The position numbers and the translations under genes are program-made. Source: Octopus vulgaris (lineage: Eukaryota). From it: a DNA stretch of 64,000 nt. Shown here one piece after another: positions 5,395-64,000 of the stretch (position 1 is its first letter; each line of letters starts with the position of its first letter). The notes below the pieces were generated by a model. That model searched no databases and was not told the origin of the DNA. It saw only the letters and a program-made list of their open reading frames with translations. Location: contig OX597822.1 in assembly GCA_951406725.2 (NCBI GenBank), positions 60,946,001 to 61,010,000 of the forward strand, written 5' to 3'.

Positions 5395-7031
5395 TGTTTC
5401 AGTCATTTGACTGTGGCTATGCTAGGGCACCGCTTTGACAAGTTTTAGTCGAACAAATTAACCCTAGGACATTTTTGAAGCCTAGTACTTATTCTATCGG
5501 TCGTTTTGCTGAACTGCTAAGTTACAGGGATGTAAATACATCACCACCAGTTGTCAAATGATAGTGGGGGACAAACACAGACCCCCACTTCCATAGATAG
5601 ATATATGTCTACAAAATCCTCTCACAAGACTTCAGTTGACTTGAAGCTAGAGTACAAAACATTTGCCAAAGGTGCCATGCAGTAAAACTGAACCCGGAAC
5701 CATGTGGTTGAGAAGCAAGATTCTTGATTTTTGGGAAATTGGCCATAAAGGCCTTACATAGAGGGGACAAAAAAACAAAACGAATGAAAAGATGGAATGA
5801 AGCCACTCAGCTCCACCTCTGAGCAACTTCATTGAACCTGTTAATACATTTTTTAAAAACTTTTTTTGAAAACAATTTAATCACCTTTTTTTCAAAATGT
5901 CTATATTGTGCTTTTTTAGAATATCCACATACCCTATGTGCTCTGGCATTGTGCTGGTGTCTATATTCTTTACCCACCACTTGCAGTCCAGATTTTCCAC
6001 ATACTCCTGTAATCTCCACACGTACTCCGTGTCTGTGAAGAAGTAGAGAAAGTTCTTGGGCAGACTCTTTACTTCCATATCTACCTTTACTGCTCCATCC
6101 CACAAGTCCACCTCATCAAACATTTCTTCATTATGCCCATTATTACATTTTTCTTCACAGGGCGGGGGTGGATAAGTTTGTGGATCCTGTGTGTTTGTAC
6201 TTGTTTTTATGTCAGACAGGGCATGGGGAGGGTTGGTGTATGTAGGGAGTGGTTGGGGCAGAGAGGGTGTGGATAGGAAGCTTAGATGGGTTGGGGGTCA
6301 TCCTTTACCACATGCATCTTCCTCCTTTTTCTTCTCTTCTTCCTTGCTATTTCACAGTTGGTATTTGTCTTCTCTTCTTCGATGCTGGTACTCTGTAGTG
6401 CTATATCTATTTCCTTTTCATCCATACTAACCCTGGAAGCACTCTTCCTATGGTAAATGGGCAGAAGAACTACCTCATTCGTTTTCAGCGATGTTGCTGA
6501 GTGCAGCCTGGCAGTAGCTGCATCCCGAAACAGCACCTCTACCGTTCCAAATTTTCTACCTCTGTCGAGGTGGGTAATTCCCTGCCAGATTGGTTCGAGC
6601 GCCTTTTCCATTTGAGCTCTTGACATAACTTCTATTTTCCCGGCCGCTATCGAGTGTGTTCTATAAATTATAGTTCTCTCATTCTTCTCCTCTAACACCT
6701 CCTTGGGGGAAAAAAATTCTCACGCTGTTCCCTTCCTTTTTAAGCATATAATAGAACCTGCTCAAATCTTCCAGGTTTACTTCTAATTCTTTAAAATTCC
6801 CCTCTGATTCACTATTCATCTCGTTGAAGTACTCCACCAATCCCTCCTCAGATGAATCACATTCTGGGGAAGAACACCTCAAATTCTCCCAACTTCTCGT
6901 TCAACGTCCCTCCATCACAAGAAGAAAAACGTCGCACAGCCAAACAACACGTCTACCTCGTACGAAATCAACAAACCTAATGGATCCTGGGTAATCAGAA
7001 GCAAGCTTTTTACCTCACAGCCACACTTGCA
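5395..7031 (-). mobile_element. tRNA-derived SINE (family A, OR/CORE-like), split by a 1.27-kb insertion
   Basis: Body at 5395-5725 and head remnant at 6997-7031 (agaagcaagctttttacctcacagccacacttgc) match the intact copies at 52925-53352 and 55480-55885. Confidence 0.85.
5726..6996 (-). mobile_element. ORF1-only (HAL1-like) non-autonomous retroelement, copy 1, degenerate
   Basis: Bounded by TSD agaagcaag(a/c)tt(c/t)tt at 5711-5725 and 6997-7011. ORF pieces 6679-6882, 6282-6698 and 5881-6123 are homologous to the element at ~44880-46860. No RT or endonuclease coding capacity. Confidence 0.75.
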
Positions 7032-8882: not shown

Positions 8883-9683
<801 letters not shown>

Positions 9684-10115
9684 TATCTGTAGTAAATTAT
9701 TCTCCCATACTTAACTACACATTTATATCCATACAGAGGAGTTACTGTATTAGTATCAAATGTCATCCTGTTCGAAAATATAAATTTTATCGTAAAAATG
9801 TATTCACACAAGAAAGTAGATATGACAGCATGTGTTAATATGCTCCCAACACTATTGTATAAGACCATAAATATATTTAAATTATTGGCGAGAAAGCATT
9901 ATGATATTTTTAATAAATGCAGTCATTTGAAATATATATATATATATATATGCAAATAAGAAAATGGAAGAACAAATTCATTTCGAACATCAACTTACAG
10001 ATAGTACCATTTCATATTATTTATTAATTATATAAATAGGAACATGAAAATCGAACAAAACAATATACATCAATATACAAATTAATAATACCATAAGAAT
10101 AATATAAATAAACTG

Positions 10116-18170: not shown

Positions 18171-18586
18171 TATTTCTTTACTGCCCACAAGGGACTACAC
18201 ATAGAGGGGACAAACCAGGTCAGACAAACGGATTAAGTCGATTATATCGACTCCAGTGCGCCACTGGTATTTACTTAATCGACCCCGAAAGGATGAAAGG
18301 CAAAGTCGACCTCGGCGGGATTAGAACTCAGAACGTAACGGCAGACGAAATACCTATTTCTTTACTACCTACAAGGGGCTAAACACAGAGAGGACAAACA
18401 CGGACAGACAAACGGATTAAGTCGATTATATCGACCCCAGTGCGTAACCGTTACTTAATTTATCAACCTCGAAAGGATGAAAGGCAAATCGACCTCGGCG
18501 GAATCTAAACTCAGAACGTAACGGCAGACGAAATACGGCTACGCATTTCGCCCGGCGTGCTAACGATTCTTCCAGCTCGACGCCTT
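18171..18586 (-). mobile_element. Head-to-tail dimeric SINE (family B, with gcctttcatcctttcggggtcgat central domain)
   Basis: One full monomer plus a 5'-truncated second monomer, inside a single 20-bp TSD aaggtacaca(g/c)tctatttct (18151-18170, 18587-18606). Confidence 0.9.
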
Positions 18587-19894
18587 AAGGTACACACTCT
18601 ATTTCTGCCAAACTAACTACTCGAAGTTATATGAAGAATTATCTTATTCACATGAACATATGTCTTCAGTGAATTTGACTCCAAGGTTTATTAGCTTAAT
18701 TAGAAATGCCTCAACAACTCTACTTTTTTGAATCACAATTCCTCGCTACCTGTCCAGTTACGAGGTTTTCATTCTATTATATTTTACTTAACTTAGTATT
18801 TCTTTTCAGTGTTTCTACGTATACCGTATCAAACTGAAACAGTTTTAACTGACACTGAGAAGAAATCTGTACATATTCTTTAGGTTTATTAGAAATTGCA
18901 TCTCGAGTTAAGATGCACGAAGACATTGCACACTCCTCGCTTGCAATGTCTTCATGTATCTAACAGGAAAAGCTTCCGTTTACTCTTTTTTTTTCTCACC
19001 TTACTAAATATAACTACGATGAAATTAAACCTAGTGGGTATTAAGAGGTGTGGATTATCTTAAATGCGGTACAAAAAGAAAAAGCTACATATTTAAGTGA
19101 TGGAAGGAAGGATTTGAAGACATGGTATCGGCCATTATCTGCAAGTCGAGCAAACGTCTCCAAATACTAACGCAAAGAGTTACCTACCTTATACTGATAG
19201 TGCAGCTAGAGTTGTGTCAGCTAGAGTTGTGTCCCCTTGAATATAACTGCAAAAAAGAAATGCATGATATAGCTTAACTTCTTAGTATTCAATCCGGCCT
19301 TATCCGATCCAAATATTCCGTCAGTTTTTTGTTCAAACTGGCCAAATCTAGCTTTTCACGCCAACTCTACATTGTCAATCTAAAAACAAACAGTCCATAT
19401 TATTGAAATCTCAAAATAATTATCGAGTCGTTTTTATTAATTCAGATTTGTTGATCGTGTATCTGATCCCATTTTCTTAAGTTTATATTTCTCTTTCTCC
19501 TCTATAAACCTACATATAATTTTCAATAATATAACCCTTTGATAATTTTAAAACGCGCTCTCCTGGTTATCTAAATTTATTTAATACCTTAATTGTCAAA
19601 TTAAATTTCACGCTTATTCCAGTAATGGTGTTTATTATCTACCAAGAAATATAATTGGTATTTTCTGCAAGTCATGCTGCTTCAATAACCGTGGCATACC
19701 TCAACAAAAAATAGTTTCAAACGTGGCATTAGTATATAAAACTGCTTTCCATTGTTAAGAGTAATGAAATTTTGAGTGGATATATGTGATTTCCACTGGT
19801 AAGGATGTTTTGTTATCATGGTTTGGTTGCTAATTATAGAAATTGTAAATTACATAATTGTCTGACTCCTGTCGGACCAGAGCAGGACATTTAC

Positions 19895-23365: not shown

Positions 23366-23590
23366 TATTTCTTTATTGCCTACAAGGGGCTAAACACAGA
23401 GGGGACAAACAAAGGGATTAAGTCGATTGCATTGACCCCAGTGCGTAACTGGTACTTAATTAATTGACCCCGAAAGGATGAAAGGTAAAGTCGACCTTGG
23501 CAAAATTCAAACTCAGAATGTAACAACAGACGAAATACTGCTAAGCATTTCACCCAGCGTGCTAACATTTCTGTCAGCTCGTCGCCTTAT
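23366..23590 (-). mobile_element. SINE family B monomer
   Basis: TSD gaagagagatatatt at 23351-23365 and 23591-23605. Confidence 0.9.
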
Positions 23591-24206: not shown

Positions 24207-24518
24207 TGTGGAGGCGCAATGGCCCAGTGGTTATGGCAGCGGACTCGTGGTCGTAGGATCACGGTTTCAATTCCCAGAGCAGGCATTGTGAGTGTTTATT
24301 GAGCGAAAACACCTAAAACTCCACGAGGCTCTGGCAGGGGGTGGTGGCAATCCCTGTTGTACTCTTTCGCCGCAACTTTCTCTCACTCTTTCTTTTGTAG
24401 GCCTGCTCACTTAGCCAGCAGGATGGTGTCATTTGAAGGCTAAAACAATGCGAAGTGCATTGTGACCAGCTGTGTGTAGCAACATCTGATAGCCTGGTTG
24501 GTCATGTGATCACGTGAT
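24207..24518 (+). mobile_element. tRNA-derived SINE (family D)
   Basis: Head ggaggcgcaatggcccagtggtta... with B-box-like ggtttcaattccc; non-coding body ending gtgatcacgtgat. Confidence 0.65.
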
Positions 24519-24519
24519 A

Positions 24520-25009
24520 TCATTGACAGAGCGGCTAACCGGCTTCCGTGCCAGTGGCACTCAAAGGGCTCCATTCGAGCGTGATCATTACCAACGTTGC
24601 CTTACTGGCACTTGTGCCTGTGCTAGTAGGGTGCCAAGAGCACCATCCAAGCGTAATCATTGCCAGAGCAACCAACTGGCTTCTGTGCCAGTGGCACGTA
24701 AAAGGGCACCATTCGAGCGTGATCGTTACCGAAGTCACCTTACTGGCACCTGTGCAGGGGGCATGTGTAAAAGGATTCGAGCAAGGTTGTTGCCAGTACC
24801 GCCTGACTGACCCCCGTGCCGGTGGCACATAAAAAGCACCCACTACACTCTCAGAGTGGTTGGCATTAGGAAGGGCATCCAGCTGTAGAAACTCTGTCAA
24901 ATCAACCTTGGAGCCTGGTGCAGCCATCTGGTTCGCCAGCCCTCAGTCAAAATCGTCCAACCCATGCTAGCATGGAAAGCAGACGTTAAACGATGATGAT
25001 GATGATGAT
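24520..25009 (+). mobile_element. RTE 3'-UTR/tail with ~60-bp repeats and (GAT)n
   Basis: Repeated gtggcac.taaaa..cacc units, conserved tail, (GAT)n running into (TA)n. Confidence 0.85.
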
Positions 25010-27074: not shown

Positions 27075-27640
27075 TTTTATCTTTCACTTGTTTCAGTCAT
27101 CAGACTGTGGCCATGCTGGGGCACCATCTTGAAGAGTTTTTAGTCAAATGAATTGAACCCATTAATTACTTATTAAAGCCTGGTACTTATTCTGTCAGTC
27201 TCTTTTGCTAAACTGCTTAGTTACAGGAATGTAAACATACCAACACCAGTTGTCAAGCGATGGTGGGGGACAAACACAGACACAAAGGCAGGCACACACA
27301 CACACATATGACAGGCTTTTTTCAGTTTCTTATTTCTTATTTCTTTATTGCCCACAAGGGGCTAAACATAGAGGGGATAAACAAGGACAGACAAAGGGAT
27401 TAAGTCAATTACATCGATCCCAGTGCATAACTGGTACTTAATTTATTGACCCCGAAAGGATAAAAGGCAAAGTCATCCTCGGCGGAATTTGAACTTAGAA
27501 CGTAATAGCAGACGAAATACTGCTAAGCATTTCGCCCAGCTTGCTAACAGTTTCTGTTGGACAAACCCACTCACAAGGCTTTGGTTAGCACAAGGCTATA
27601 GTAGAAAACACTTATCAAAGGTGCCATGCAGTGGGACTGG
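27075..27640 (-). mobile_element. SINE family A with a nested family-B SINE (~27330-27550)
   Basis: The family A sequence is interrupted at cagtttct, which recurs after the family-B copy. Confidence 0.8.
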
Positions 27641-32537: not shown

Positions 32538-34015
32538 CCCTTGTCGTGGTGGAAGAGCTTGTGTATTCCAATGATTCTGAGAGCAATACTGTCTGGAGTC
32601 TTAGCCTCCTGGTTGGGCCGCCCATGGTGGCAAGGTTAAGGATGAGGTCCCAGACTAAACATGACCAAACACCATCATCAAGACCCCAATGGCGGAGCAT
32701 GCGGAAGAGGGCTATCTCAAGTCCCCAAGGATTGACTCAGGCAGGAGAGGGCAACGCCTGGCAGGTAGGTGTGACAAAGGTGGATAGATTCTGGCAGCTC
32801 GCTGCAACCAGGCTCATCAAGACTGTATGTCTCAATTCTTGAGCCGCAATGAAGAAGTTCCTGGCCAAGTGTGTGTGCATGGCTGTCATGCAGTCATGAT
32901 CACCTCAAACAATTTACTCAGTGAAAGGCTTCATCTTTCTAATCTGTCTTAAAATGACCAATGTCAATGGTATCGTGTGCACCAGAGGCAGGTCTGGAAA
33001 GCTGGAAGCCTCTAGTCGATGACTGCACATTGGCAGTGAATCTGAGATGGTCACTCTCCAATGAATAGCCATGGCATTGGAGTTTGGTAGCTAGACTCAT
33101 GACTGGGCTGGCGTCTTTAGTATTACTGCTGCCCACCCCTCAAGAGAAAGCCAAACTCCGGGTGTGCCTAGCCCTCGAGAACCATGCCACTACAGAGAAC
33201 AAACAAAAATACAGCAAGCATCAGTGGAATGCCAGTGAGGAATTCAAGAAGCTCAGAACATCAGTACTTGTTCGCATGAAGCCGGTGAAACCTCCAGGAC
33301 CACACAACATCCCATTTGAGTTTTTCACTCACAGAGGTCCTGAGCTGAGAAATCATCTGATGCTCCTTATCCTCAAGATTTGGGAAAGCAAGACCCCACC
33401 AAATGACTTCTGTGATGCAACTATCATCACCATCTACAAGAAGGGAGAGCAAGAGGATTGCAACAATTATTGGAGCATCTCACTCCTGAGTATTGCAAGT
33501 AAGATCTTCGATCCTACTCAATTGCCTCCGCATCCTCATGGAAGACATTCTTCTTGAGTCCCACTGTGGCTTTCAACCCTCTTGAGACAATCGACATGAT
33601 CTTTTGTGCCCATCAATTCTAGGAGAAGTGTCAGAAACAACGACAGCCTGCAATGTTCGCCTTCTGGGATCTAAAGAAAGCCTTTGACAAGGTCCCCCAT
33701 GCTGCGATGTGGGCCATTCTTGGCTGGTTTGGATATCCGGAGGACTTCATTGCCCTGTTCTGCTCCCTCTATGACAGCATGGCGGGTAGGGCATGCCATC
33801 AAAATACCCTTACAGACCCGTTTCTCATCACTGGGGGTCTTAAGCAAGGATGTGTCCTGGCACCAACCTCTTTCTCTTTGTACATGGCTGCCATGTTCAA
33901 CAAAATCCCACTAGACTCGCCTTCCATCAACATGTGCTATCGCTTGGATGGCGGACTCTTCAATCTCACACGTCTCCATACAAAGATGAGGACTGCCACC
34001 ATCTCAGTCCGTGAA
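32538..34015 (+). mobile_element. RTE-BovB-like LINE: 5' UTR plus internally deleted RT
   Basis: The 5' end ccttgtcgtggtggaagagcttgtgt...cccatggtggcaagg...ccagactaa resembles RTE/BovB 5' ends; RT remnants KPPGPHNIP, NNYWSISLLS, FWDLKKAFD, GLKQGCVLAP. Confidence 0.85.
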
Positions 34016-34395
34016 CACTATCAAGGCTGTAAGATATGACCTGATCATCATGAAAGATAAACTCTCTCAAACTGTGATGGTCTTTGGGTGTGTTTCCAGT
34101 GAAGGTGATGGCATGCCTCTCCACATTGTTGAACAGAGCCTTAGGCTCAATCCAGATGGTTATGTGAAGCTGTTAGAGACTGTGGCCAAACCCTGGCTGG
34201 AGAGATTTGCTGCTGGAAAGCTACATATGTGACAGCAGGATTTGGCTCCTTGTCATACCTCAGGCAAGAGTCAGAAGTGGATGGCAGAGAATTTCTACAA
34301 CTTTACCAGCCCCAATTTCTGGCTTCCTAATTGCCCTAATTCTAATCCCATGGATTATTATGTGTGGAGTGTAGTTGAGAAAGATACCAACTACT
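34015..34395 (+). mobile_element. maT (DD37D)-type transposase fragment
   Basis: VMVFGCVSSEGD...QQDLAPCHTS...NCPNSNPMDYYVWS; homologous to 37916-40810. Confidence 0.75.
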
Positions 34396-34632
34396 TTGGC
34401 CAGCCTAGGGTTATACAGTAGATATTGTTTCATCAACATATTGATAATTGAGGTGTTGTTTGATTAAGATGTATCAGAAATTATAAGTTGGTATAGTTGG
34501 TATAATTATAAGTTGCAGGATAGTGGATAGATGTTATATCTGTGTAGTCATGTGTGTGTGCACATGCATGTTGTATAGTTAATTGTGTGTGTGTTTGTGT
34601 GTATGTATGTAGTTATGTGTGTGTGTATTACG

Positions 34633-34677
<45 letters not shown>

Positions 34678-34699
34678 TTGCTCAAAACAGTTGCATATA

Positions 34700-35399
34700 T
34701 AAGCTGACCAAGACCACAAAAACGAAGATTTACCAGGCATGTGTGCTTAGCACTCTACTATATGGAAGTGAGACTTGGACGCCATACACACGCCAAGAGC
34801 GTCGCCTAAATATCTTTCACCTGTGCTGCCTCCGGAAAATCCTTCGCATTAAATGGCAGAATCATGTCCCCAACAAAAATGTTCTCAAGCAGGAATACCA
34901 AGCATGTTTGCACTCCTCACACAAGGACGTATGAGATGGCTTGGACATGTTAGCCGTATGGAGGATGGCAGAATCCCCAAGGACATACTCTACGGAGAGC
35001 TTGCTAGGGGCACTAGGTCTGTGGGAAGACCGTTCTTACGATATAAGGATGTTTGCAAAAGGGACATGAAGGCTTGCAACATCAATATTAGCAACTGGGA
35101 AGCAGTTGCCAGCAACTGTGGAGATTGGTGACGTACCGTAAAAGAGGGAACACAAAGGAGTGACAGAGAGAGAGAGGAGAAATAGAAAGACAATAAAAGA
35201 CGTCAACAAGAAACTATGACATTACAACCAGCCAGGAAAAGTCTTCGCTACATTTGTGGCACCTGCCAGAGGGAGTGTTTGTCCAGGATAGGACTACACA
35301 GCCACAGCAGGAAATGTATTAGGATATGAAATGTAAAAGCCGGACTAGATTATTTTATGCGCAACTCCATTGTCTCCCGAGAAAAAGGATGCCAACAAT

Positions 35400-37915: not shown

Positions 37916-40810
37916 CAGGGAGCAGTGCATAAACTGTCATCTAATTTATGCAAAAATTAAAATAACACTGGCACCTCATTTTAACAGATATATTTACCAA
38001 AATTGCATAAAAATATCCTGAAATACTAAGCAGTAAATTTATTCAATAGAATTACCCTTGGCTTCAACCATGGCCTCCAGACAACTTTGGAATGTCCTGC
38101 AGCTCTTCTGGATAGTCTCCGCATTTAAGTTGGTGAATGCTGCCATAATCCTTGCCTTCAGTTCATATTTGGTGTTACAAGGAGTTATGTTGGTCTCTCA
38201 CTCAACTGCATCCCACACATCAAGGGGATTTCAGTCTGGGGAATTAGGTGGCCAGATGTTAGGTGTGATGTGGTTACTTAAATTATCTGACAGCTATGAC
38301 TGGGTTCTCCTGTTTGTGTGGCAAGGTGCAGAGTCTAATACCAGACATAGAGTCTTCCAGCAGCCACCCTCATGACCCAGAGCAACACTTCCTCCTCCAG
38401 GCATTTGATGTAGGCCTCTGTGTCGAGTCTGAGGATGTGTGGGAAGATGAATGGAGGCATAAACGCAATTATGGCTCTCCTGGTCTCGATGGTGTTACAT
38501 ACCTACTTCTCAAACGCGGTGGGTACTTTCTTCTAAGCCAACTTTCTCTATTCTTCCAATTCTGTCTTGACAATGGTGTTACTCCAGAACAGTGGAAAAC
38601 TGCCAGTGTCATCCCTCTGTTCAAAAAAGGCGACCGCACATCGCCTGTCAACTATCGCCCCGTCAGTCTTACCAGCTGCATCGCCAAACTGATGGAATCC
38701 TGTATCAGAGAAACCCTCTGGAACTTCTGGAAGTCTCACAGCCTCATCCAGCCGTCACAATTCAGATTTATTCCTAACTCCAGCTGCTGTAATCAACTCA
38801 TCGAGTTTCTTGAGGATGTTACCCAAATCACTGATTGCGGATCCTGGGTGGATGTTGTTTACCTGGACTTTGCTAAGGCTTTTAACTCTGTGCCACACAA
38901 AAGACTTATGGTGAAGCTTTCTGCGTTGGGTGTAAGAGACGAACTCTATAACTGGTTAAAGTCCTTTATTTTCGGCCGAAAAGAGGTTGTCACAGTTCTA
39001 GGACAGCACTCTGCGCCCTATGAGATGACATCTGGTGTGCCGCAGGGATCTGTTCTTGGCCCCCTTTTATTTGTTGCATATGTTAATGACATAGATGCCA
39101 ACTTAAAGAATGTCACAGTGCTGAAATATGCAGATGACATCAAGATGTACCTCGAAATAAAGAGGTCAAATCCTATACACTATGGATCTCTATTGCAAGC
39201 AGACCTGGACACAATGCAGCAGTGGATCATGGACTGGCAACTCAAGCTGGCTGTGGACAAATGTACCACCATGCATTTTGGGAGGAGAAACCCAGCGTCC
39301 ACCTACTCCCTCCACAACACTAGTCTCAAAAAGTCTTCAAGTGAACGTGACCTGGGTGTTATTGTCAACAGTGATTTGCGTTGGACAAAATACATCGCCA
39401 AAATTGTCAAGAAGGCTGAGGGTGTCTTGGCATCACTCACCAAATCCTTTGTGAGCCGCTCTCCGGCTATCTATCTGCGGCTTTATATAGCTATGGTAAG
39501 ACCTCACCTGGAATTTGCATCACCGGTCTGGAACCCCTATCTTGCCCAGGACATCAATCGTCTGGAAGCTGTTCAGCGACGTGCAACCAAAAGAATACCC
39601 TCCATCAGGCATTTGCCATATTCTGAACGCCTTACTTCCCTGGGCATGGACACATTGAAACTCCGACGTCTGGCAGCTGACCTGGCAGACACCCATAAAA
39701 TTATCAACCATCGCACAAACAATAACACTGAGCACCTCTTCAAACTCCACCCATCTAACACCCGTGGACATATTTACAAAGTCAGAAAACAGCATAGCTC
39801 CCATGACTTCAGGAAACATTTTTTCACGCTGAGAGTTGCTGAAGCGTGGAACAAACTGCTGGCATCGGTTGTTAGTTGTCGGAGCACTGCATCCTTCAAG
39901 ACTTCCATGCTTCCTGAGATTCGCCAACACTACACTTGATTTTCTCCCCTCCATACACACACAAGCATGTTCACTTTCCAGACATTTCTACATTACTGCA
40001 TGTACTTTATATGCACTTTCTGACAAGTTGTGGTGCACCTGAGCACTGTATACAATAATTTCATTATTATTATTATTATTATAATGTCGCCATCACTAGT
40101 GATCACTCTAAACAACATGAGGTTGAATGGATTCTTGATTTTTATCACACTCGGTACATGTTTTGGGGACATGGAAAGCCAACTGTTGCTCTCTGTACTC
40201 ACCATCTGATCCTGGCAGAAAATTTTTTCGTCTGAGAAAAACCAAAGCATTTTCAATTGGAGTGAATGCTTGAGTTTGTTCAAAAGCTTCGTAGCACAGT
40301 TTTTCCTCTTGTCCTCAATGGCTTGGGATAAAAATTGGCCCTTTCTCATCTTGTATGAGGAATACTGAATGTCTTTATGCACTACCTGCCTGATAAGAAA
40401 CTAAGACATTCCCATGCCCCTAGTGATAGACATGATTGACTTGGAGGGATTGTTGTCAGTCATGACCTAGATCTCACCAACAAATTCAGTTCTTTTCTTA
40501 TCAGAACGATCAGATTGAATTTTTCAAGCTGCTGTACCTTTGTAATCACCATTAAGCTCATTCAACTCTTTCCAAATCTTCTGCACTGTCCTGAAATGTT
40601 CGTATTGGAGCTTCCGGCAGGAATGCCAAGCAGTACAGCAGGTCGTTTCCAAATTTTTGGCAGAGTGAATTGCATCATGGAATTTTTTTTTCTCACAGAT
40701 CATGCCCAACTGACTCTACTATACTGTGTAATCAATAAAATCAAAAGCAAACACTGCACATGCACGAAATTTAAATTATAAAATGACAACAATTTACCCA
40801 TCACACTCTG
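37916..40810 (-). mobile_element. maT/DD37D (Tc1-mariner superfamily) transposon split by a CR1 insertion
   Basis: TA flanks and imperfect CAG.G TIRs. The minus-strand transposase reads FFSDEKIF...ITSDGDI, then resumes after the insertion as MPPFIFP...DSAPCHT...WPPNSPD.NPLD. Confidence 0.85.
38463..40080 (+). mobile_element. CR1-group LINE, 5'-truncated, uninterrupted RT ORF
   Basis: ORF to 39939: SPGLDGV, NYRPVSLTS, YLDFAKAFNSVPH, SGVPQGSVLGPLLF, YADDIK, ERDLGV, RPHLEFASPVWNP; (ATT)n tail. Confidence 0.97.
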
Positions 40811-40926: not shown

Positions 40927-42998
40927 ATCATCATCATCATCATCATCATCATTTAGCGTCCACTTTCCATGCTAGCATGAGTTGGACGGTTCAACTGGGG
41001 TCTGTGAAGCCAGAAGGCTGCATCAGGCCCAGTCTGATCTGGCAGTGTTTCTATGGCTGGATGCCCTTCCTAACGCCAACCACTCCGTGAGTGTAGTGGG
41101 TGCTTTTTACGTGCCATTCGCACAGGTGCCAGATGGAGCTGGCAAACGGCCACAGACGGATGGTGCTTTTTACGTGCCACCGGCACGGGGGCCAGGCGAG
41201 GCTGCCAACGGCCACGATTGGATGGTGCTTTTCATGTGCCACCAGCACGGGGGCCAGGCGAGGCTGGCAACGGCCACGAATGCATGGTCCTTTTACGTGC
41301 CACTGGCACAGGGGCCAGGCGAGGCTGGCAATGGCCACGAATGGATGGTGCTTTTTACGTGCCACTGGCACGGAGGCCAGTCGGGGCGGTGCTGATAACG
41401 GCCACGATCGGATGGTTCACTTACTTGTCACTGGCACTGGTATCACAGCTGCAATTTCCATTGATGTTGATCGACTTCAATTTTGGTTCTGCTTTCAGAT
41501 ATCTGATTTGATTTGGTTTGATTTTGATTTTGATTTTGATTTTCACTTGCCTCAACTCACAAGTGGAGTTTTGTGTCCCAAGAAGGAAAGGTATGTATAA
41601 GTCGACTGGCTACATACCAGGTAGAGGCCATGGGTTATGGTCTCACTAGTCTTGCCGGGTCTTCTCATGCACAGCATACTTCCATAGGTCTCGGTCTCTA
41701 GTCATTTCCTTGGTGAGACCTAAAGTTCGAAGGTCGTGCTTCACTACCTTGTCCCAGCTTTTCCTGGGTCTACCTCTTCCATAAGTTCCCTCAACTGCTA
41801 GGGTGTGGCACTTTTGCACACAACTATCTTCAGCCATTCTCGTCACATGACCATACCAGCACAAACGTATCTCTTGCACACCACAACTGATGCTTCTTAG
41901 GTCCAACTTTTCTCTTAAGGTACTTACACTCTGTCGATTATGAACACTGACATTACACATCCATCGGAGCATACAGGCTTCATTTCTTGCGAGCCTACGC
42001 ATATCCTCAGCAGTCACAGCCCATGTTTCACTACCATATAGCATGGCTGTACGTACACATGCATCATACAGTCTGCTTTTACTCTGAGCGAGAGGCCTTT
42101 TGTCACCAGCAGGGGTAAGAGCTCTCTAAACTTGCCCAAGCTATTCTTACTCTAGCAGTTACACTTTCAGCACACCCACCCCCGCTACTGACTTGGTCAC
42201 CTAGGTAGCGGAAGCTATCAACTACTTCTAGTTTTTCTCCCTGGAACATGGTAGAAGTTGGTCTCTGCACATTTTCAGTGTTTATTGCTCCTGAGCATCT
42301 GCCACAGACAAAAACTATTTTCCTAGTTAGCCTTCCTTTGACATTGCTGCACCTCTTATGTGTCCATAGCTTACACTTGGTGCACCTTATAGAGTTTCTA
42401 CCTATGCCTTTTTTACAGATCGAGCAGGGCCATCTGCATGAAAGCGTTTGTGATTGGTCTACCTTCCTACTTATTAGGACTTTGGTTTTGGCTAGGTTGA
42501 TTCTAAGGCCCTTCGATTCTAAACCTTGCTTCCACACCTGAAACTTCTCCTCCAGTTCTGATAGTGACTCAGCAATTAGAGCAAGGTCATCAGCATAGAG
42601 GAGCTCCCAGGGGCATCCTGTCTTGAATTCCTCCATTATTGCCTGGAGGACTATGATAAATAGGAGGGGACTGAGGACTGAACCTTGGTGGACCCCAACC
42701 TCTACCCGGAATTCTTCACTGTACTCGTTGCCAACCCTCACCTTACTAGCAGCGTCCCTGTACATGGCTCGCACAGCTCTCACTAACCATTCATCTATCC
42801 CTAGTTCCCTCATTGATCACCAGATAAGAGATCGGGGGACCCTGTTGAAGGCTTTCTCCATGTCAACAAAAGCCAGGTACAGGGGCTTATCTTTGGCTAG
42901 GTATTTCTCCTGCAGCTGTCTTACCAGGAATATAGCATCAGTAGTACTTTTCCCTGGCACGAACCCAAACTGCATCTCATCTAAGCTAACTCTCTCTC

Positions 42999-43003
<5 letters not shown>
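40927..43003 (-). mobile_element. RTE LINE (PHD family), 5'-truncated, with full 3' UTR
   Basis: ORFs 42103-42813 and 41646-42044; ~60-bp repeats at 41100-41430; (GAT)n tail at 40927; (TA)n at the 5' junction. Confidence 0.95.
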
Positions 43004-43048
<45 letters not shown>

Positions 43049-43071
43049 TACATATACATATATATATACAT

Positions 43072-43106
<35 letters not shown>

Positions 43107-43108
<2 letters not shown>

Positions 43109-43281
43109 TAAAAAGCACCCACTACACTCACGGAGTGGTTGGCATTAGGAAGGGCATCCAGCTGTAGAAACTTTGCCAGAAAAGACCGGAGCCTGGTGCA
43201 GTCTTTTGGCTTCCCAGATCCCCGGTCGAACCGTCCAACCCATGCTAGCATGGAGAACGGACGTTAAACGATGATGATGAT
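43107..43281 (+). mobile_element. RTE 3' tail
   Basis: Conserved tail plus (GAT)n, embedded in TA/CA microsatellite. Confidence 0.85.
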
Positions 43282-44559: not shown

Positions 44560-44870
44560 CATACATATATAGGTTTGACAGAGAATACAATTAAGAAACA
44601 TGTCATGGACCACTTACTTTTAGGAATAGACAGAAATCTAATTCTAATGGATTAAGTAAATTTAGAGTAAAGATTATTTGCCAAAATAACGTGGCAGTCG
44701 AATATTACTGTTATTTATCCCCAGGAAACATTGACTCCAGCTGGGTATATGATGCACTATCTGTGTCCTTATATTTTCGAACTAGGGAGTTTAGCATCCC
44801 CACTCCAGCACAAAATATCTATATCATGATTTCTGGGTTATCTTCCTTCATCAGCACAGAATAACTGTTC
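44560..44870. mobile_element. PLE remnants: GIY-YIG fragment (+) and degenerate hammerhead (-, 44817-44861)
   Basis: YIGLTENTIKKH...SNSNGLSK on the plus strand; the minus strand reads CUGAUGA-AGG...CC-A-GAAA-UCAUGA-UA with a weak stem I. Confidence 0.55.
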
Positions 44871-44879
44871 AGCCAGAGG

Positions 44880-46860
44880 TTTATTCTTTATTCTAGGCAC
44901 ATGGCCCATACACATAGGGGACATACATAGACATGCAGGGGACAAGCAACAAGTGAAAATGAATATAGTACAATGATATGAGATGACTATCTCAGTCCCG
45001 CTCTGAGACAAAACCATGACCTCCTTTTTTCTTTCAAGCCTATTTTCAACAAAAGCGTTTTTATAAAATTAAATCAAATGTTCTTACCATCTTTTCCTTT
45101 TTTTTTTTTGTTCCTTTTTGTATCGTTCTTTTTCTTAAGCTAACACATATTCAATTAAAGTTAATACCGTATAAATCCAGTAATTTATAATAGTCTATTT
45201 CGTCTGGTACCTCATTTGTGTTGAACACCATTTTCCTGCATTCCGCACTTTCTTTACAGTCTCTAACTACTTTCATTCTGCATTCCGGTACCAATGCGCC
45301 TAAAACCATTTTTCATTTTCTCATTCCCCTCATGTCCATCTCTCCACACCCTTCCACTGTACCAACCCATCCACCACATCCCCCCTTACACCCTTCAATA
45401 AAGCACAAACAAAACAAGTGGGAAGGTCGTCTTGCGGTTCCTTGTATGACTGCTGTTCCCCTTCTCCTTATGTCAGAGGGGAATGGGTCGGTTCGGTGTC
45501 TGCAGGGGAATAGGTGGGTTCAGTGTCTGCAGGGAGAGGGTGGGGTTGATAGGACAAGGGTGTGGTGGGCACAGGGTGTGGCCCACTTAAGCTGTCCTTC
45601 CTCCCCCTCCTCTGCCTTCCTCCCATATCCTTTCATCCATCCTTGTCACTTCCTTCTTCTATCCCTTCTGGTTCCCTCTCTGCCCCTTCCTGGGTTGGCT
45701 CATCTTTCAGAGGAAGTCTGCTCTAATGTGGTCTTTATGACCACATTTATAGCAGCGAGGGAGTCTGCCCTCTACCCACACTTTCATCACCGCCTCTTCA
45801 ACCGCCACTGCTTCCATGAGCAACTCCAAGTTTTCCACCCTACTCTGCATTATTAGTTCCAAGATTACACCGTGCCAACTAGTGGCTTGGAGTGCGATGA
45901 CCTTTTCCTAGCTTCCTAGTAGCACAGCCGCCACTACCCAAGCCACGTCTATTTCAGGGGGGGACTCCCTACACCCCGACTTTGGAAGTTCCTCCTCCAA
46001 GGCACATGGGTAGAAAGGTCACCCTTTCCGCCTTCATCGACTTTGTTGAGTTTTCTCTCACTTTCACCTTGTTCCCAAAACACACCTCGACAGTGCCATA
46101 TTGGCTTCCTCTCGCAAGACATTACGTCTTGCCAGACAGGCCCCAATGCCCTTTCAACTTCATCCATCTGTTCATTCTGTAATCCCCTCTCCTTGACAGA
46201 ACAGACCCTGTATACAATCTTCCTTTCTTCCACTTCACTCAGCACTTTCTGTGGTGGTGACAACTTCACGTCACCACCTTCCCTTTCTAGCACTTTTTCA
46301 TAATTTTTCAAAGTTTTGAGGCCCACTTCCCTTCCTGGCACTTCTGCCACTTTCACAGAAGCTTTCTCCTTCATAGCTCTGTCCATCCGCATTACAGCCT
46401 CCACCAGCTCCCCCTCAGACGACGACAGTTCCGAACATGACACCTCTGACCCACTCACATCCGAACAAGCCTCCGCCATCCCTCCTCAAACTGTTGCGGG
46501 GGAGGGGGGGGAACGGCTTCCCCCACAAAAAATCCCTGCAACGCCACACAAAAATAAAACAATAACCTATTTCTTTACTACCCACAAGGGGCTAAACACA
46601 GAGGGGATAAACAAGGACAGACAAACGGATTAAGTCAATTATATCGACCCCAGTGCGTAACTGGTACTTATTTAATCGACCCCAAAAGGATGAAAGGCAA
46701 AGTCAACCTTGGCGGAATTTGAACCCAGAACGTAGTAGCAGACGAAATACCACTAAGCATTTCGCCCGGCGTGCTAACGATTCTGCCAGCTCACTGCCTT
46801 ATAATAAAACAATAAAACAATAACCGACGCTAACACACGGAATGAACCCACATAACCTTG
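44880..46860 (-). mobile_element. ORF1-only (HAL1-like) retroelement, copy 2, degenerate, with CCHC knuckle
   Basis: Frameshifted ORF from 46479: acidic/Ser N-terminus, ERKIVYRVCS..ERALGPVWQD..YGTVEVCF..FLPM..GVPPEID..VWVEGRLPRCYKCGHKDHIRAD, then a C-terminal domain ending NTNEVPDEIDYYKLLDLYGINF. No RT. 5' boundary approximate. Confidence 0.75.
46568..46800 (-). mobile_element. SINE family B inserted in the 5' UTR of the ORF1-only element
   Basis: TSD aataaaacaataacc at 46553-46567 and 46811-46825. Confidence 0.9.
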
Positions 46861-47680
46861 GCAGTAGCAAACTATCAATAAAAAACAAAAAAGCCAGCTA
46901 AATTCTTGTTTGAAATATATAGTTTTCAAAGTGACACACGGTCACTGATCTAATGGAATAGAAAATTTCTATTTGTAAATCTCTCAATGAGAGACATTCA
47001 GTAACAGTATTTTAGAGGAAAGATTATTTGCCAACATAACGTGGCAGTCATCACTTTGAAAGCTATTTGCAAATAGAAATTTTTCTATTTTAGTCTTTTA
47101 TTTTATATGTATCGTTTTATGCTAGTCTTAAGGTGGCTGAATATTTATTTAAAGCAGTATTTTTTAGGTAGATACACTTTATGTAACTAACCTATACTTG
47201 TTTTTCAGGCAACATTATATCATACCACAAAACTAATAAACTGAAGTACTACAGGGTGCAAAGTTCACCAGGAATTTAAACAATGATACTGTTTTAGGCT
47301 CAGGTAGTTTCATACAAAGTGGTGAAATGACAACTTATAACACACACACACATACACAGACACACACACATGTGTACATGTACAAACCTATTATTATTGG
47401 AGCAACAATATATGCACCAACTTATCTGGAGCAAAGTATGGCTAAACTTTGGTTCTTGGAGAGAGTGCCCAACTCGTTAATTCATACACTACAAATGATT
47501 ACGAAATCTGGGACTACAAAAGGCTACAAGACCTTAAGATTTAAAGGATGATTAACAAAACAAGCTGCTTTCTTTTGCAACCTTGTTACCAAGCAGGTGA
47601 CCAGTTAAAATTAACTCTAAATTGAAAAGAGATATAGAACATACATGTATATGTGCATGTGAGTGTTATATATACATATA

Positions 47681-59035: not shown

Positions 59036-59065
<30 letters not shown>

Positions 59066-59070
<5 letters not shown>

Positions 59071-60638
59071 GATGCTCAGGAGAAATAAACACTGGAAATG
59101 TGCAGAGACCAACTTCTACCACGTTCCAGGGAGACAAACTAGAAGTAGTTGATAGCTTCCGCTACCTAGGAGACCAAGTCAGTAGCGGGGGTGGGTGTGC
59201 TGAAAGTGTAACTGCTAGAGTAAGAATAGCCTGGGCAAAGTTTAGAGAGCTCTTACCCCTGCTGGTGACAAAAGGCCTCTCGCTCAGAGTAAAAGGCAGA
59301 CTTTATGATGCATGTGTACGTACAGCCATGCTACATGGTAGTGAAACATGGGCCGTGACTGCTGAGGATATGCGTAAGCTCGCAAGAAATGAAGCCAGTA
59401 TGCTCCGATGGATGTGTAATGTCAGTGTTCATAATCGTCAGAGTGTAAGTACCTTGAGAGAAAAGTTGAACCTAAGAAGCGTCAGTTGTGGTGTGCAAGA
59501 GAGCCGGCTGCGCTGGTATGGTCATATGACGAGAATGGCTGAAGATAGTTGTGTGCAAAAGTGCTACACCCTAGCAGTGGAAGAGGTAGACCCAGGAAAA
59601 CCTGGGACGAAGTGGTGAAGCACGACCTACGAACTTTAGGTCTCACCAAGGAAATGACTAGAGACCGAGACCTATGGAAGTATGCTGTGTGTGAGAAGAC
59701 CCGGCAAGACTAGTCAGGCCATAACCCGTGGCCCCTACCTGGGACGTAGTCAGTCCACCTGTGCATACCTTCCTTCTTGTGACACTTGTGAAGACCTGTT
59801 GAGGCAAGTGAAAATCAAATCAAAAATCAAACAAAATCAAAATAGATGAACATCAAAGGAATTTGTATCTTTGTGGTATAAGTGCCGGTGGCACACAAGA
59901 AAACCATCCGAACGTGGCCGTAGCCAGTACCGCACCGACTGGCCTCCATGCTGTGGGCACGTAACAATCACCATCCAATCGTGGCCGATCGCCAGCCTAA
60001 TCTGGCTCCTGTGTCGGTGGGACATAAAAAAACACCATCCGAGCGTGGTCGTCTGCTAGCCTTGTCTGGCACCTGTGTCGGTGGCACATAAAAACACCAT
60101 CCGAGTGTGGCCGTTCACCAGCCTCGTCTGGCACCTGTGTCGGTGGCACATAAAAACACCATCCGAGCGTGGTCGTCTGCTAGCCTTGTCTGGCACCTGT
60201 GTCGGTGGCACATAAAAACACCATCCGAGCGTGGCCGTTCGCCAGCCTCGTCTGGCACCTGTGTCGGTGGCACATAAAAACACCATCCGAGCGTGGTCGT
60301 CTGCTAGCCTTGTCTGGCACCTGTGTCGGTGGCACATAAAAACACCATCCGAGCGTGGCCGTTTGCCAGCTTCGTCTGGCACCTGTGTCGGTGGCACATA
60401 AAAACACCATCCGAGCGTGGCCGTTCACCAGCCTCGTCTGGCACCTGTGTCGGTGGCACATAAAATCACCCACTACACTCTCGGAGTGGTTGGCATTAGG
60501 AAGGGCATCCAGCTGTAGAAACACTGCCAGATCTGACTGGCCTGGTGCAGCCTTCGGGCTCCCCAGACCCCAGTTGAACCGTCGAACCCATGCTAGCATG
60601 GAAAGCGGACGTTAAATGATGATGATGATGATGATGAT
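59066..60638 (+). mobile_element. RTE LINE (PHD family) 3' part with expanded 62-bp minisatellite
   Basis: ORF 59100-59618; repeat array at ~59880-60470; (GAT)n tail; (TA)n on both sides. Confidence 0.95.
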
Positions 60639-61284: not shown

Positions 61285-64000
61285 TCATCATCATCATCAT
61301 CATCATCGTTTAACGTCCGTTCTCCATACTAGCATGGGTTGGACGGTTCGACCGGGGATCTGGGAAGCCAGAAGGCTGCACCAGGCTCCGGTCTTATCTG
61401 GCAATGTTTCTACAGCTGGATGCCCTTCCTAATGCCAACCACTCCGTGAGTGTAGTGGGTGCTTTTTACGTGCCACCTGCACTGGTGCCAGGCGAGGCTG
61501 GCATCGGCCACGGTCGGATTGGTGCATTTTACGTGCCACCTGCACGGTAGCCAGTCGAGGCGGCACTGGCTTCAGCCACGATTCGGATGGTGCTTTTTAC
61601 GTGCCACCGACACGGAAGCTAGTCGAGGCGGCGCTGGCATCAGCCACGATTCGGATAGTGCTTTTAACGTATCTCCAGTCTAGGGGTCCTGGCATCTGCT
61701 GGGTGCCAGTCATAGGATTGGTTCAATTTCGATTCCGATTTCACTTGCCCCAACAGGTCTTCGCAAGCAAAGGGGGTTGGCATAGGTGCCTGTCGTCGGA
61801 TGAGGTTTGATATCGACTTCGCTTGCCTCAACAGGTCTTTGTGTGTCCAAGGGAGGAAAGGCATGCATAAGTGGGCTGGACTCACTTGTCCTGCCTGGTC
61901 TTTTCACGCACAGCATATTTCCAAAGGTCTCGGTCGCTGGTCATTTCCTCCTAAAGTTCGAAGGTCGTGCTTCACCACTTCGTCCCAGGTTTTCCTGGGT
62001 CTACCTCTTCCACGGGTTCCCTCCACTGCTAGGGATTGGCACTTTTTCACACACCTATCTTCATCCATTCTCGCCACATGACCGTACCAGCGCAATCGTC
62101 TCTCTTGCACACCACAACTGATGCTCCTTAGGTACAACATTTCTCTCAGGGTACTAACGCTCTGTCGAGCATGCACACTGACATTACACATCCATCGGAG
62201 CATACTGGCTTCATTTCTTGCGAGCTTATGCATGTCCTCAGCAGTCACGGCCCATGTTTCACTGCTATGTAGCATGGCTGTTCGTACACATGCATCATAC
62301 AGTCTGCCTTTTACTCTGAGCGAGAGGCCTTTAGTCACCAGCAGAGGTAAGAGCTCCCTAAACTTTGCCCAGGCTATTCTTACTCTAGCCATTACACTTT
62401 CAGCACACCCACCCCCACTACTGACTTGGTCACCAAGATAACGGAAGCAATCAACTACTTCTAGTTTTTCCCCCTGGAAAGTGACGGAAGTTGTTTTCTG
62501 CAGATTTTCAGAGGTTAATGCTCCCGAGCATCTGCCGCATACAAAAACCATCTTCCTAGTTAGCCTTCCTTTGACATTGCTGCACCTCTTATGTGTCCAT
62601 AGCTTACACTTGGTGCATCTTATAGAGTTTCTACCTACACCTTTTCTACAGATCGAGCAGGGCCATCTACCTGAAGGCGTTTGTGATTTGTCTACCTTCC
62701 TACTTATTACGACTTTGGTTTTAGCTAGATTGACTCTAAGGCCCCTCGATTCTAAACCTTGCTTCCACACCTGAAACTTCTCCTCCAGTTCTGATAGTGA
62801 CTCAGCAATTAGAGCAAGGTCATCAGCATAGAGGAGCTCCCAGGGGCATCCTGTCTTGAATTCCTCTGTTATTGCCTGGAGGACTATGATAAATAGGAGG
62901 AGGCTGAGGACTGAGCCATGGTGGACCCCTACCTCTACCCGGAATTCTTCACTGTACTCGTTGCCAACCCTCACCTTACTAGCAGCGTCCCTGTACATGG
63001 CTCGCACAGCTCTCACTAACCATTCATCTATCCCTAGTTTCCTCATTGACCACCAGATGAGGGATCGGGGGACCCTGTTGAAGGCTTTCTCCATGTCAAC
63101 AAAAGGTACAGGGGCTTATCTTTGGCTAGGTATTTCTCCTGCAGCTGCCTTACCAGGAATATAGCATCAGTGGTACTTTTCCCTGGCACGAACCCAAACT
63201 GCATCTCATCTAAACTAACTCTCTCTCTAATTAGTTGGGCTATGACCCTCTCTGTAACCTTCATTACTTGATCCAACAGCTTGATACCTCTGTAATTATT
63301 TGTATCTAGGGCGTCACCTTTACCTTTGTAGCAGTTGACTATTATGCTGCTACACCAGTCATTGGGTATGACTCCTTCGTGTATCACCTGATTAACTATA
63401 CGGGTGACTAGGCTATAGCCGACACTACCAGATATTTTGAGCATCTCTGCAGTGATACCTGATGGGCCTGGGGCTTTCCCTGTCTTCATGCTTCTAATTG
63501 CCTTAACTACCAAGGAACTATCAACTCTGATAGCTGGTCCCTCTGTTGGGTCAACATTCGGCAGACTCTCTTTATCCCATTCATTTTCTTTATTCAGCAA
63601 CCTTTCATAGTGGCATCTCCAAACCTCTCTCTTTGCATCCTCATTTAGCGCAAGTGAACCATCTTCCATGCGAACACACTTCTCTCCTACCACATCACAA
63701 TTCTCTCTCACACACTGTCTTGCAACGCGAAACACCTCCAGTCTTTGGTCCTCACGGCGCAGAACATTGGCAAATTTTTTCTTATCTGCTTCCCCTCTGG
63801 CTAAATACACCAGTCTCCTAGCTTCCCTTTTAGCAGTCTGATACAATTCCCTGCTACCACCATTCTTCCAGTGTTTCCAAGTCTGTCTCTTTTCTCTAAT
63901 AGCCCTGTCTACAACACTGTTCCACCACCACGTAACCTTGGGATGAGAGGGGACTTTGCACCAGCCACAAATCTGGTCAGTGGCTCTCAGCAGGTTGTTC
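61285..64000 (-). mobile_element. RTE LINE (PHD family), young copy continuing beyond the window
   Basis: ORFs 63043-63846 and 61904-63094 are joined by a 4-nt deletion at ~63105 relative to other copies; RT motifs QFGF, DMEKAF, HGSVLS, YADD; (GAT)n tail at 61285. Confidence 0.97.

What the first reader, a model, noticed from the sequence alone, without database searches (positions are those of the whole stretch)
44880..46860. Divergent second ORF1-only family: gag-like knuckle plus a shared unrecognised C-terminal domain
Seen: protein-level homology to copy 1 despite little obvious DNA identity. ERKIVYRVCS aligns with ERTIIYRTHS, ERALGPVWQD with EKALEPIWQG, YGTVEVCF with FGTVEVLF, and the C-terminal W.G...DM...NTNEVPDEIDYYKLLDLYGINF with W.G...DM...DTSTMPEHIGYVDILKKHNIDI. 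This copy retains VEGRLPRCYKCGHKDHIRAD, a CX2CX4HX4C knuckle with the last Cys lost. Again the ORF is followed directly by a short 3' UTR and an AATAAAGAATAAA tail. Inference: two deeply diverged lineages with the same RT-less layout imply a long-lived protein-coding non-autonomous clade under selection, with a new ~80-aa domain.
Basis: partly seen in the sequence, partly recalled or inferred. Interest (0 to 1): 0.75.

Follow-up and report, generated by a model that had tools for sequence, protein, structure and literature searches.

The report
Half-LINE docked beside a hammerhead ribozyme
A decayed copy of an octopus-type jumping gene that kept only its predicted RNA-binding protein sits, like many of its relatives, at one fixed base just in front of a predicted self-cutting RNA motif in another small repeat, and it likely borrowed its copying enzyme from a complete relative found at the same base.

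Summary
This is a broken copy (about 46890-44880, minus strand) of an ORF1-only LINE of the L1 group, probably Tx1. [quoted passage not shown] The CTD is homologous to copy 1's (profile E 1e-28). It has no Pfam match and a predicted generic ferredoxin-like fold. It is not an ORF2 start, and it links by profile to the CTD of autonomous ORF1s, so it is not special to RT-less elements. ORF1-only families are under purifying selection (dN/dS mostly 0.1-0.3). They form one or two deep clades apart from the sampled autonomous ORF1s. The tail joins a 352-nt hammerhead repeat at a fixed base, at the foot of the ribozyme's predicted stem I. Of 27 loci sharing this tail, 17 abut one of three such repeats. 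A full autonomous LINE with a related 5' UTR uses the same base. Copy 1 targets a SINE head instead. ORF1-only LINEs (HAL1, HeT-A, Ag-Sponge) and Tx1 targeting of other repeats are known. My searches found no paper on this combination, but this scan has already reported it on other DNA of this genome.

The parts
46897..47049 (-). Upstream part of the target: positions 196-346 of the 352-nt hammerhead repeat monomer (RZ1). The 5' copy of the target duplication is eroded here.
   Evidence: blastn to monomer L054, 80%; a joint 44880-46897 without the element stands in 4 contigs of run X18
46480..46890 (-). 5' UTR of the ORF1-only element, interrupted by a SINE. In sister copies its first ~90 nt match the 5' UTR of the autonomous RZ1-targeting LINE L310.
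   Evidence: local score 86 and 67 against a shuffle maximum of 33 and 31 for sisters L189 and L110; the window's own UTR was not scored
46560..46803 (-). Later SINE insertion in the 5' UTR, with an apparent 15-nt target duplication
   Evidence: (several copies in the window), sequence
45151..46479 (-). Broken ORF1 (1329 nt): acidic N-terminus, RRM1, RRM2, CCHC knuckle, charged and proline-rich linker, CTD; four frameshifts and four stops
   Evidence: fold of intact kin
45712..45757 (-). CCHC zinc knuckle; the last Cys is lost at a 1-nt deletion
   Evidence: Pfam zf-CCHC E 0.024; 30 of 37 kin match zf-CCHC at E 0.1 or less
45151..45440 (-). C-terminal domain of about 95 aa, predicted ferredoxin-like fold plus one helix, no Pfam family
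44880..45150 (-). 3' UTR and AATAAAGAATAAA tail (44892-44880); this tail type is shared by distant ORF1-only lineages
44661..44879 (-). Downstream part of the target: RZ1 positions 1-234. It holds a degenerate type I hammerhead (core 44854-44848, GAAA 44833-44830, predicted cut after 44822). The insertion base is the foot of the predicted extended stem I.
5790..6990 (-). Copy 1 (outside the finding): another ORF1-only lineage, internally deleted, inserted in a SINE head with an 11-nt target duplication

Best explanation
The stretch is a decayed ORF1-only LINE that sits at a fixed base of a 352-nt hammerhead-bearing repeat, and it was likely copied there by the endonuclease and reverse transcriptase of a complete L1-group (probably Tx1) relative that occupies the same base. 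Steps: (1, shown) dispersed families carry 5' UTR, ORF1, a short 3' UTR and an AATAAAG tail, with no ORF2, and have 11-17-nt target duplications. (2, shown) the 3' junction is the same base in many copies, 25 nt before the hammerhead core. (3, shown) a full ORF1+ORF2 element lies at that base and shares its 5' head with this family. (4, inferred) the partner's ORF2p nicks the site and primes reverse transcription on the half-element's 3' tail, so the partner sets the target. (5, inferred) ORF1-only lineages change target by swapping heads and tails with whichever partner is active, helped by stacking at a shared site. (6, inferred) ORF1p is kept by selection because it coats its own RNA in cis and would co-assemble with the partner's particle; the CTD is likely an accessory RNA-binding or assembly domain inherited from the ORF1 of the whole lineage.
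For: Family: 45 DNA matches; 146 scored protein matches, many with open frames. Tail census: 27 distinct loci (30 rows, 3 duplicates, flanks). 11 run straight into RZ1, 3 into RZ2 and 3 into RZ3. 5 more show a target-like stretch followed by another element, and 5 go elsewhere. Chance per random insertion is about 4e-7 (2460 RZ1 candidates, over 2 x 2.8 Gb; my arithmetic). The exact junction pattern occurs 12 times and the reversed control 0 times. Target duplications on ORF1-only copies: L110, L189, L190, L298, L299, L301, L304, L305, L309, L312. Autonomous elements in hammerhead repeats: L310 in RZ1 and L234-L236 in RZ3 with about 19-nt duplications. ORF2 has APE and RT, its best solved relative is human L1 ORF2p (E 5e-59), and its relatives carry zf-RVT. 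The 5' head is shared with L310 and not with three other families. The same tail and target occur on distant branches of the tree. Selection. Fold.
Against: Trans-mobilisation is inferred only. The W-family tail and the L310 tail match only in short motifs. The tail search query held 21 nt of RZ1, which favours RZ1 hits (it does not favour RZ2 or RZ3). The window copy's own 5' duplication is eroded, and no duplication was found for several loci, some of them 5'-incomplete. Only 12 non-redundant autonomous ORF1 rows were sampled (48 before de-duplication), from searches that score only the best candidates. 55 of 216 cores were unlabelled and dropped, and more were dropped for length, more than 7 X, or 88% redundancy. 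A hidden autonomous parent with a W-like ORF1 is therefore not excluded. The Tx1 assignment rests on recalled traits and the L1-group result, not on an RT tree with references.
Confidence: 0.85

Rival explanations
1. The element uses the ribozyme. It lands in sense orientation at the foot of the hammerhead's stem I, so read-through RNA would be cut about 58 nt after the tail. That would give a defined 3' end carrying target sequence that helps priming, and between two ribozymes a 2-kb ORF1-coding RNA that could be circularised. This adds to the best explanation and does not replace it.
For: In RZ1 and RZ3 the insertion base coincides with the foot of the predicted 80-nt hairpin, and in RZ2 it lies about 5 nt before it, although the three sequences differ. 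All junctions seen are in sense orientation. L110 and L296 have a complete monomer with a hammerhead upstream. Co-transcribed target sequence is reported to strengthen targeting of rDNA elements (PMC4494074 passage).
Against: Related families target (TC)n microsatellites and SINE heads, where there is no ribozyme. The three repeats are homologous, so a conserved position needs no function. Most upstream flanks are partial monomers without a hammerhead. The window's own hammerhead is degenerate (z -1.7). Cleavage was not tested.
Confidence: 0.2
2. The hammerhead repeat is the element's own terminal repeat: a Penelope-like or retrozyme unit that captured an ORF1 and moves by a Penelope RT.
For: Repeat sequence lies on both sides of the ORF, with inverted 5' pieces typical of Penelope-like insertions.
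Against: Most RZ1 copies have no ORF and continue into their own monomer end. The ORF units interrupt the monomer with a tail and a target duplication. Different elements, including full LINEs, use the same base. The uninterrupted junction exists in DNA.
Confidence: 0.05
3. The copies are independent, recent internal deletions of autonomous LINEs, with no selection after ORF2 loss.
For: Some copies do carry private deletions (copy 1, L190's upstream unit). Autonomous sampling is incomplete.
Against: The same stop-to-tail layout recurs in many dispersed copies. ORF1-only rows need only 2 label changes against 11.1 in shuffles. dN/dS between ORF1-only families matches that of autonomous ones (0.08-0.29). 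Young intact ORF1-only families exist.
Confidence: 0.07
4. The stretch is a domesticated host gene, or an LTR or retroviral gag remnant.
For: CCHC knuckle.
Against: The ORF is broken here. There are no LTRs. The core folds as tandem RRMs. Close homologues lie directly upstream of LINE ORF2.
Confidence: 0.02

Closest known systems
HAL1, HeT-A and Ag-Sponge (ORF1-present non-autonomous LINEs of the L1, Jockey and CR1 clades; PMC5786205 passage; PMC5753468 passages)
   Same: 5' part, ORF1 and 3' tail kept; ORF2 absent; presumed trans-mobilisation, and ORF1p presumed to multimerise with the partner's proteins.
   Different: Type I ORF1 (RRM-RRM-CCHC plus an extra CTD), not the L1 coiled-coil type. 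Many coexisting lineages with different site-specific targets. HAL1 is reported to have arisen several times, whereas here the rows fall into one or two deep clades. Not telomeric in the loci seen.
Target-specific Tx1 LINEs: Tx1L in Tx1D, Tx1-Mar and SINEU-3 in Mariner-N4_AMi, Kibi in (TC)n (PMC4494074, passages and section 15)
   Same: Fixed insertion base inside another repeat, tandem stacking around a target duplication, non-autonomous riders sharing the target; a (TC)n-targeting family also occurs here.
   Different: The target is a hammerhead-bearing tandem repeat, and the rider codes for a protein. No hammerhead target is named in the passages read.
Non-LTR retrozymes of animals (PMC7229834 passages; bioRxiv 10.64898/2026.07.22.740005, abstract, introduction and part of methods)
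   Same: The flanking repeat has a 352-nt tandem monomer with a type I hammerhead and a short palindromic stem III, and no ORF was seen.
   Different: Here the repeat is the landing site of a LINE. Cleavage and circles were not tested.
Type I LINE ORF1 (classification as summarised in PMC4120745 passages)
   Same: RRMs immediately upstream of a CCHC knuckle.
   Different: One knuckle instead of the usual three, and an added ferredoxin-like CTD after a long linker.

Membership tests
ORF1-present non-autonomous LINE | ORF1 followed by a 3' UTR and tail, no ORF2, in many dispersed copies | tested here: met
   (113 of 216 cores labelled ORF1-only, 48 autonomous, 55 unknown)
ORF1-present non-autonomous LINE | Target-site duplications of variable length and 5' truncation | tested here: met
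   11-17 nt in sister and related copies; eroded in the window copy; truncated copies L107 and L189 (upstream unit)
ORF1-present non-autonomous LINE | Mobilised in trans by an autonomous partner's ORF2p | not testable with these tools
   inferred from the shared base and 5' head with L310
HAL1 (half-L1) proper | ORF1 of L1 type II (coiled coil, one RRM, CTD; Transposase_22) | tested here: not met
   no such Pfam match among 37 cores; fold is two RRMs plus CCHC
L1 group (partners) | ORF2 with APE endonuclease, RT and C-terminal zinc-binding region, nearest to L1 ORF2p | tested here: met
Tx1 clade (partners) | RT groups with reference Tx1 elements | not tested
   no named Tx1 reference came up; the assignment rests on target specificity and recalled motifs; L1-Tx1 families are listed for Octopus vulgaris (PMC13282606)
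Tx1 clade (partners) | Sequence-specific insertion | tested here: met
Type I LINE ORF1 | At least one RRM immediately upstream of a CCHC knuckle | tested here: met
   model pLDDT 89; 13 Foldseek matches at E 0.001 or less, all tandem-RRM proteins
Non-LTR retrozyme (flank) | Tandem monomer of about 170-400 nt with a type I hammerhead | tested here: met
   352-nt period; core and three stems, with different paired sequences in RZ1, RZ2 and RZ3; 31 descriptor hits against 8-10 in shuffles, 22 of them in these three families; Rfam found no hammerhead
Non-LTR retrozyme (flank) | Self-cleavage and circular RNA | not testable with these tools
   only contigs were available
Penelope-like element with ORF1 cargo | Hammerhead repeats are the element's own termini | tested here: not met
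Known protein family for the CTD | Match to a Pfam model, solved sequence or specific fold relative | tested here: inconclusive
   no Pfam family matched more than 1 of 33 members; no PDB sequence under E 0.25; generic ferredoxin-like matches, best Z 5.6, rmsd 3.2, 68 aligned

The most novel reading that the evidence does not exclude
A LINE lineage, with its ORF1-only riders, that parasitises the hammerhead ribozyme of another mobile element. It inserts at the foot of the ribozyme's stem I so that the host repeat's self-cleavage forms the 3' end of the LINE RNA. Between two ribozymes this would release a protein-coding 2-kb RNA that could circularise.
Probability: 0.2. Interest if true: 0.8.

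Novelty: new variant of a known kind. Interest (0 to 1): 0.5.

Why it matters
ORF1-only LINEs are known from a few cases. Here they form a long-lived radiation under selection whose lineages hold different exact targets (hammerhead repeats, a SINE head, others), apparently by changing helper. This makes two open questions testable with natural, intact, young families: why a non-autonomous LINE keeps its ORF1, and how an APE-type LINE's target is set and switched. It also offers site-specific endonucleases with new targets, and an undescribed ORF1 C-terminal domain. The window copy itself is a dead fossil, and the system was already reported by this scan elsewhere in the genome.

Tried and rejected
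Rfam gave no hammerhead hit, only microsatellite-driven miRNA noise, so I used a descriptor scan. My first reading, a Penelope-like unit with hammerhead terminal repeats (note), was rejected. A reading of the young arrays as one multi-ORF1 LINE was set aside: units have their own tails, target duplications separate them from the autonomous element, and 5 of 12 array loci shown had the E-type ORF2 element downstream. A word-index search with an intact ORF1 found nothing, whereas the profile search found 1163 proteins. ESM Atlas: no usable hit for the CTD; a second query could not be run. Foldseek: no CTD match at E 0.001 or less. CTD profile links from W to A, D and E directly were not significant; only the chain W - copy 1 - C (E 0.003, level with the best control) - E (E 3e-5) connects them, and the D-type CTD stays unlinked. 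Expression: no RNA holder listed; contigs laid on a young array allow no statement. An orthologous insertion in other species was not shown. The HAL1 paper PMC2923044 is not held.

Full report
1. What is at the coordinates. On the minus strand an ORF remnant runs from ATG 46479 to TGA 45151 over three frames. Against four sister copies it has four private frameshifts and a 15-nt in-frame deletion. It is 78-80% identical to them (JC 0.23-0.25), while they are 85-89% identical to each other. With the calibration in PMC13282606 (JC 0.09 about 25 My; part 1 of 3 read) this means tens of millions of years, a rough figure. The host is a 2.8-Gb genome. The named homologues among 10 looked up come from Octopus vulgaris, O. 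sinensis, O. bimaculoides and Argonauta hians (6 named, 4 unnamed).

2. What the protein is. Intact relatives of 443-472 aa occur in this genome. Some stand directly before an ORF2 with APE endonuclease and RT whose nearest solved relative is human L1 ORF2p (E 5e-59). A model from 37 stop-free cores (pLDDT 89) matches tandem-RRM proteins, and 30 of 37 cores hit zf-CCHC. This is a type I LINE ORF1 as defined in PMC4120745 (passages), not a Gag.

3. The C-terminal domain. The CTDs of the window family (W) and of copy 1's family are homologous as profiles (E 6e-6; E 1e-28 after expansion), although the two decayed copies do not align by BLASTP. The CTD is under purifying selection, dN/dS 0.21-0.63 in pairs with dS over 0.6; two close pairs are near 1. 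It folds with pLDDT 80 as beta-alpha-beta-beta-alpha-beta plus a helix. Only generic ferredoxin-like matches were found, and no Pfam or PDB sequence family. It does not match the ORF2 proteins fetched, and autonomous ORF1s end in their own domain before ORF2 starts. The C-type ORF1-only CTD matches the CTD of autonomous E/K ORF1s (P 74%, E 3e-5), including proteins from Argonauta and O. sinensis. The link from C to copy 1 is only E 0.003, level with the best reversed control. So the domain is new as a sequence family, probably lineage-wide, and of a common fold. Its function is inferred (accessory RNA binding or assembly).

4. An old, selected ORF1-only clade. Of 216 cores extracted, 113 were followed by a tail with no ORF2, 48 by ORF2, and 55 could not be labelled. 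After dropping the unlabelled, short, over-broken and over-88%-identical rows, 59 remained. The label needs 2 changes against 11.1 in shuffles. The window copy and copy 1's kin fall in a 37-row ORF1-only clade (89/84, below the starred threshold), and ten C-type rows form a second. One origin is not rejected (p-AU 0.47); the tree has no outgroup. Core dN/dS among ORF1-only families is mostly 0.11-0.3, like that of autonomous pairs (0.08-0.29, 28 cores, only pairs with pS under 0.68 printed). Autonomous sampling is limited to the best-scoring candidates of two searches.

5. The target. The 220 nt after the tail and the 150 nt before the 5' end are two parts of one 352-nt tandem monomer, RZ1, which has about 2460 first-look candidates. 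It holds a minimal type I hammerhead with a palindromic stem III. Two related repeats, RZ2 and RZ3, keep the core with different paired stems, and four intact examples fold at z -2.4 to -3.8. This fits animal non-LTR retrozymes (PMC7229834, passages). Rfam missed it. Among 27 distinct loci with this tail type, 11 continue at the same base into RZ1, 3 into RZ2, 3 into RZ3, 5 into a target-like stretch followed by another element, and 5 elsewhere (the query held 21 nt of RZ1). Ten ORF1-only loci show both junctions with duplications of 11-17 nt. The junction without the element stands in 4 contigs of an independent run. The repeat is therefore the landing site and not part of the element.

6. 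The partner. L310 is a full ORF1+ORF2 element at the same RZ1 base with a 17-nt duplication. L293 and L107 show ORF2-bearing elements stacked with half-elements at this site, and L234-L236 are autonomous elements in RZ3. The first ~90 nt of the W 5' UTR match L310's (score 86 and 67, shuffle maximum 33; no match to three other families), although W and this ORF1 type lie far apart on the tree. Other families target (TC)n or a SINE head; copy 1 is one of the latter. The same target recurs on distant ORF1-only branches. The simplest mechanism is trans-mobilisation by whichever site-specific ORF2p recognises the tail, with heads and tails exchanged between stacked neighbours. This step is inferred.

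7. Does it use the ribozyme? In RZ1 and RZ3 the insertion base is the foot of the predicted extended stem I, and in RZ2 about 5 nt before it, always in sense. That would leave a whole ribozyme right behind the tail. Against this: sister families use ribozyme-free targets, the three repeats are homologous, most upstream flanks lack a second hammerhead, and nothing was assayed. I put it at 0.2.

8. Against what is known. ORF1-present non-autonomous LINEs are listed for the L1, Jockey and CR1 clades (PMC5786205 passage; PMC5753468 passages). Tx1 families targeting other transposons, satellites and microsatellites are described (PMC4494074, passages and section 15). Searches for hammerhead with Tx1 (one unrelated listing), retrozyme with octopus, Tx1 targets with Penelope, octopus Tx1 ORF1, HAL1 with Tx1 and ORF1 classification showed no paper describing a hammerhead-targeting LINE or ORF1-only Tx1 families; most hits were seen as listings only. 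The main text of the O. vulgaris repeat annotation has no occurrence of 'ribozyme', 'non-autonomous' or 'nested'. Its library, Repbase and subscription papers were not seen and may hold these families. PMC11203168 (passages) added nothing. After I had formed this reading, the scan's notes showed the same system on other DNA of this genome, and a similar Tx1 target in another genome.

9. Verdict. It is a new variant of known kinds, whose most surprising trait is the target; interest 0.5.

Noticed in passing
L091-L106, L171-L185 (for example G000:C2:71851285-71865400, C8:32266600-32283600, C14:37734400-37754000): Young head-to-tail arrays of up to about 12 intact or near-intact ORF1-only units (families A, B, C). 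At 5 loci they stand before a 97-100% identical autonomous element, with a 13-nt duplication between. The target itself scores as an ORF1-like fragment by tblastn (33%); earlier notes call it a Helitron, which I did not test.
   Followed up: partly
L262, L265, L268, L270-L275, L278, L280, L281, L286-L288: Young autonomous family inserted in (TC)n microsatellites, like Kibi
   Followed up: partly
window 5790-6990; L065-L088, L142-L166, L253-L260, L279: Two separate ORF1-only lineages insert at one base of a SINE head (tRNA origin recalled, not tested)
   Followed up: partly
window 46560-46803 and other copies (18171-18587, 23366-23590, 27338-27556): This abundant SINE ends in nearly the same tail as ORF1-only families A/B and the E-type autonomous LINE, which suggests a shared partner
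   Followed up: no
L247, L252, L241, L245 (G000:C5:29189500-29206451): Full-length autonomous elements in tandem with a 5.28-kb period at other fixed targets that I did not identify
   Followed up: no
L212 after the tail; L205 and L217 after the tail: A possible fourth hammerhead-like target, and another shared target site that I did not identify
   Followed up: no
array units in L091-L106: Many otherwise identical young ORF1s shift frame at A-runs in the linker before the CTD; assembly error, decay or recoding were not told apart
   Followed up: no
window 8883-9704 (+): C2H2 zinc-finger array of about 8 fingers with an 84-nt period, probably a host KRAB-less zinc-finger exon
   Followed up: no
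window 150-2320, 33069-34934, 38269-39939, 41646-43263, 59037-59618, 61904-63115: Fragments of other LINE reverse transcriptases (RTE-like and CR1-like by recalled motifs)
   Followed up: no
window 24493-24942, 41099-41437, 59956-60470, 61458-61670: Dispersed 62-68-nt tandem repeats of one family
   Followed up: no
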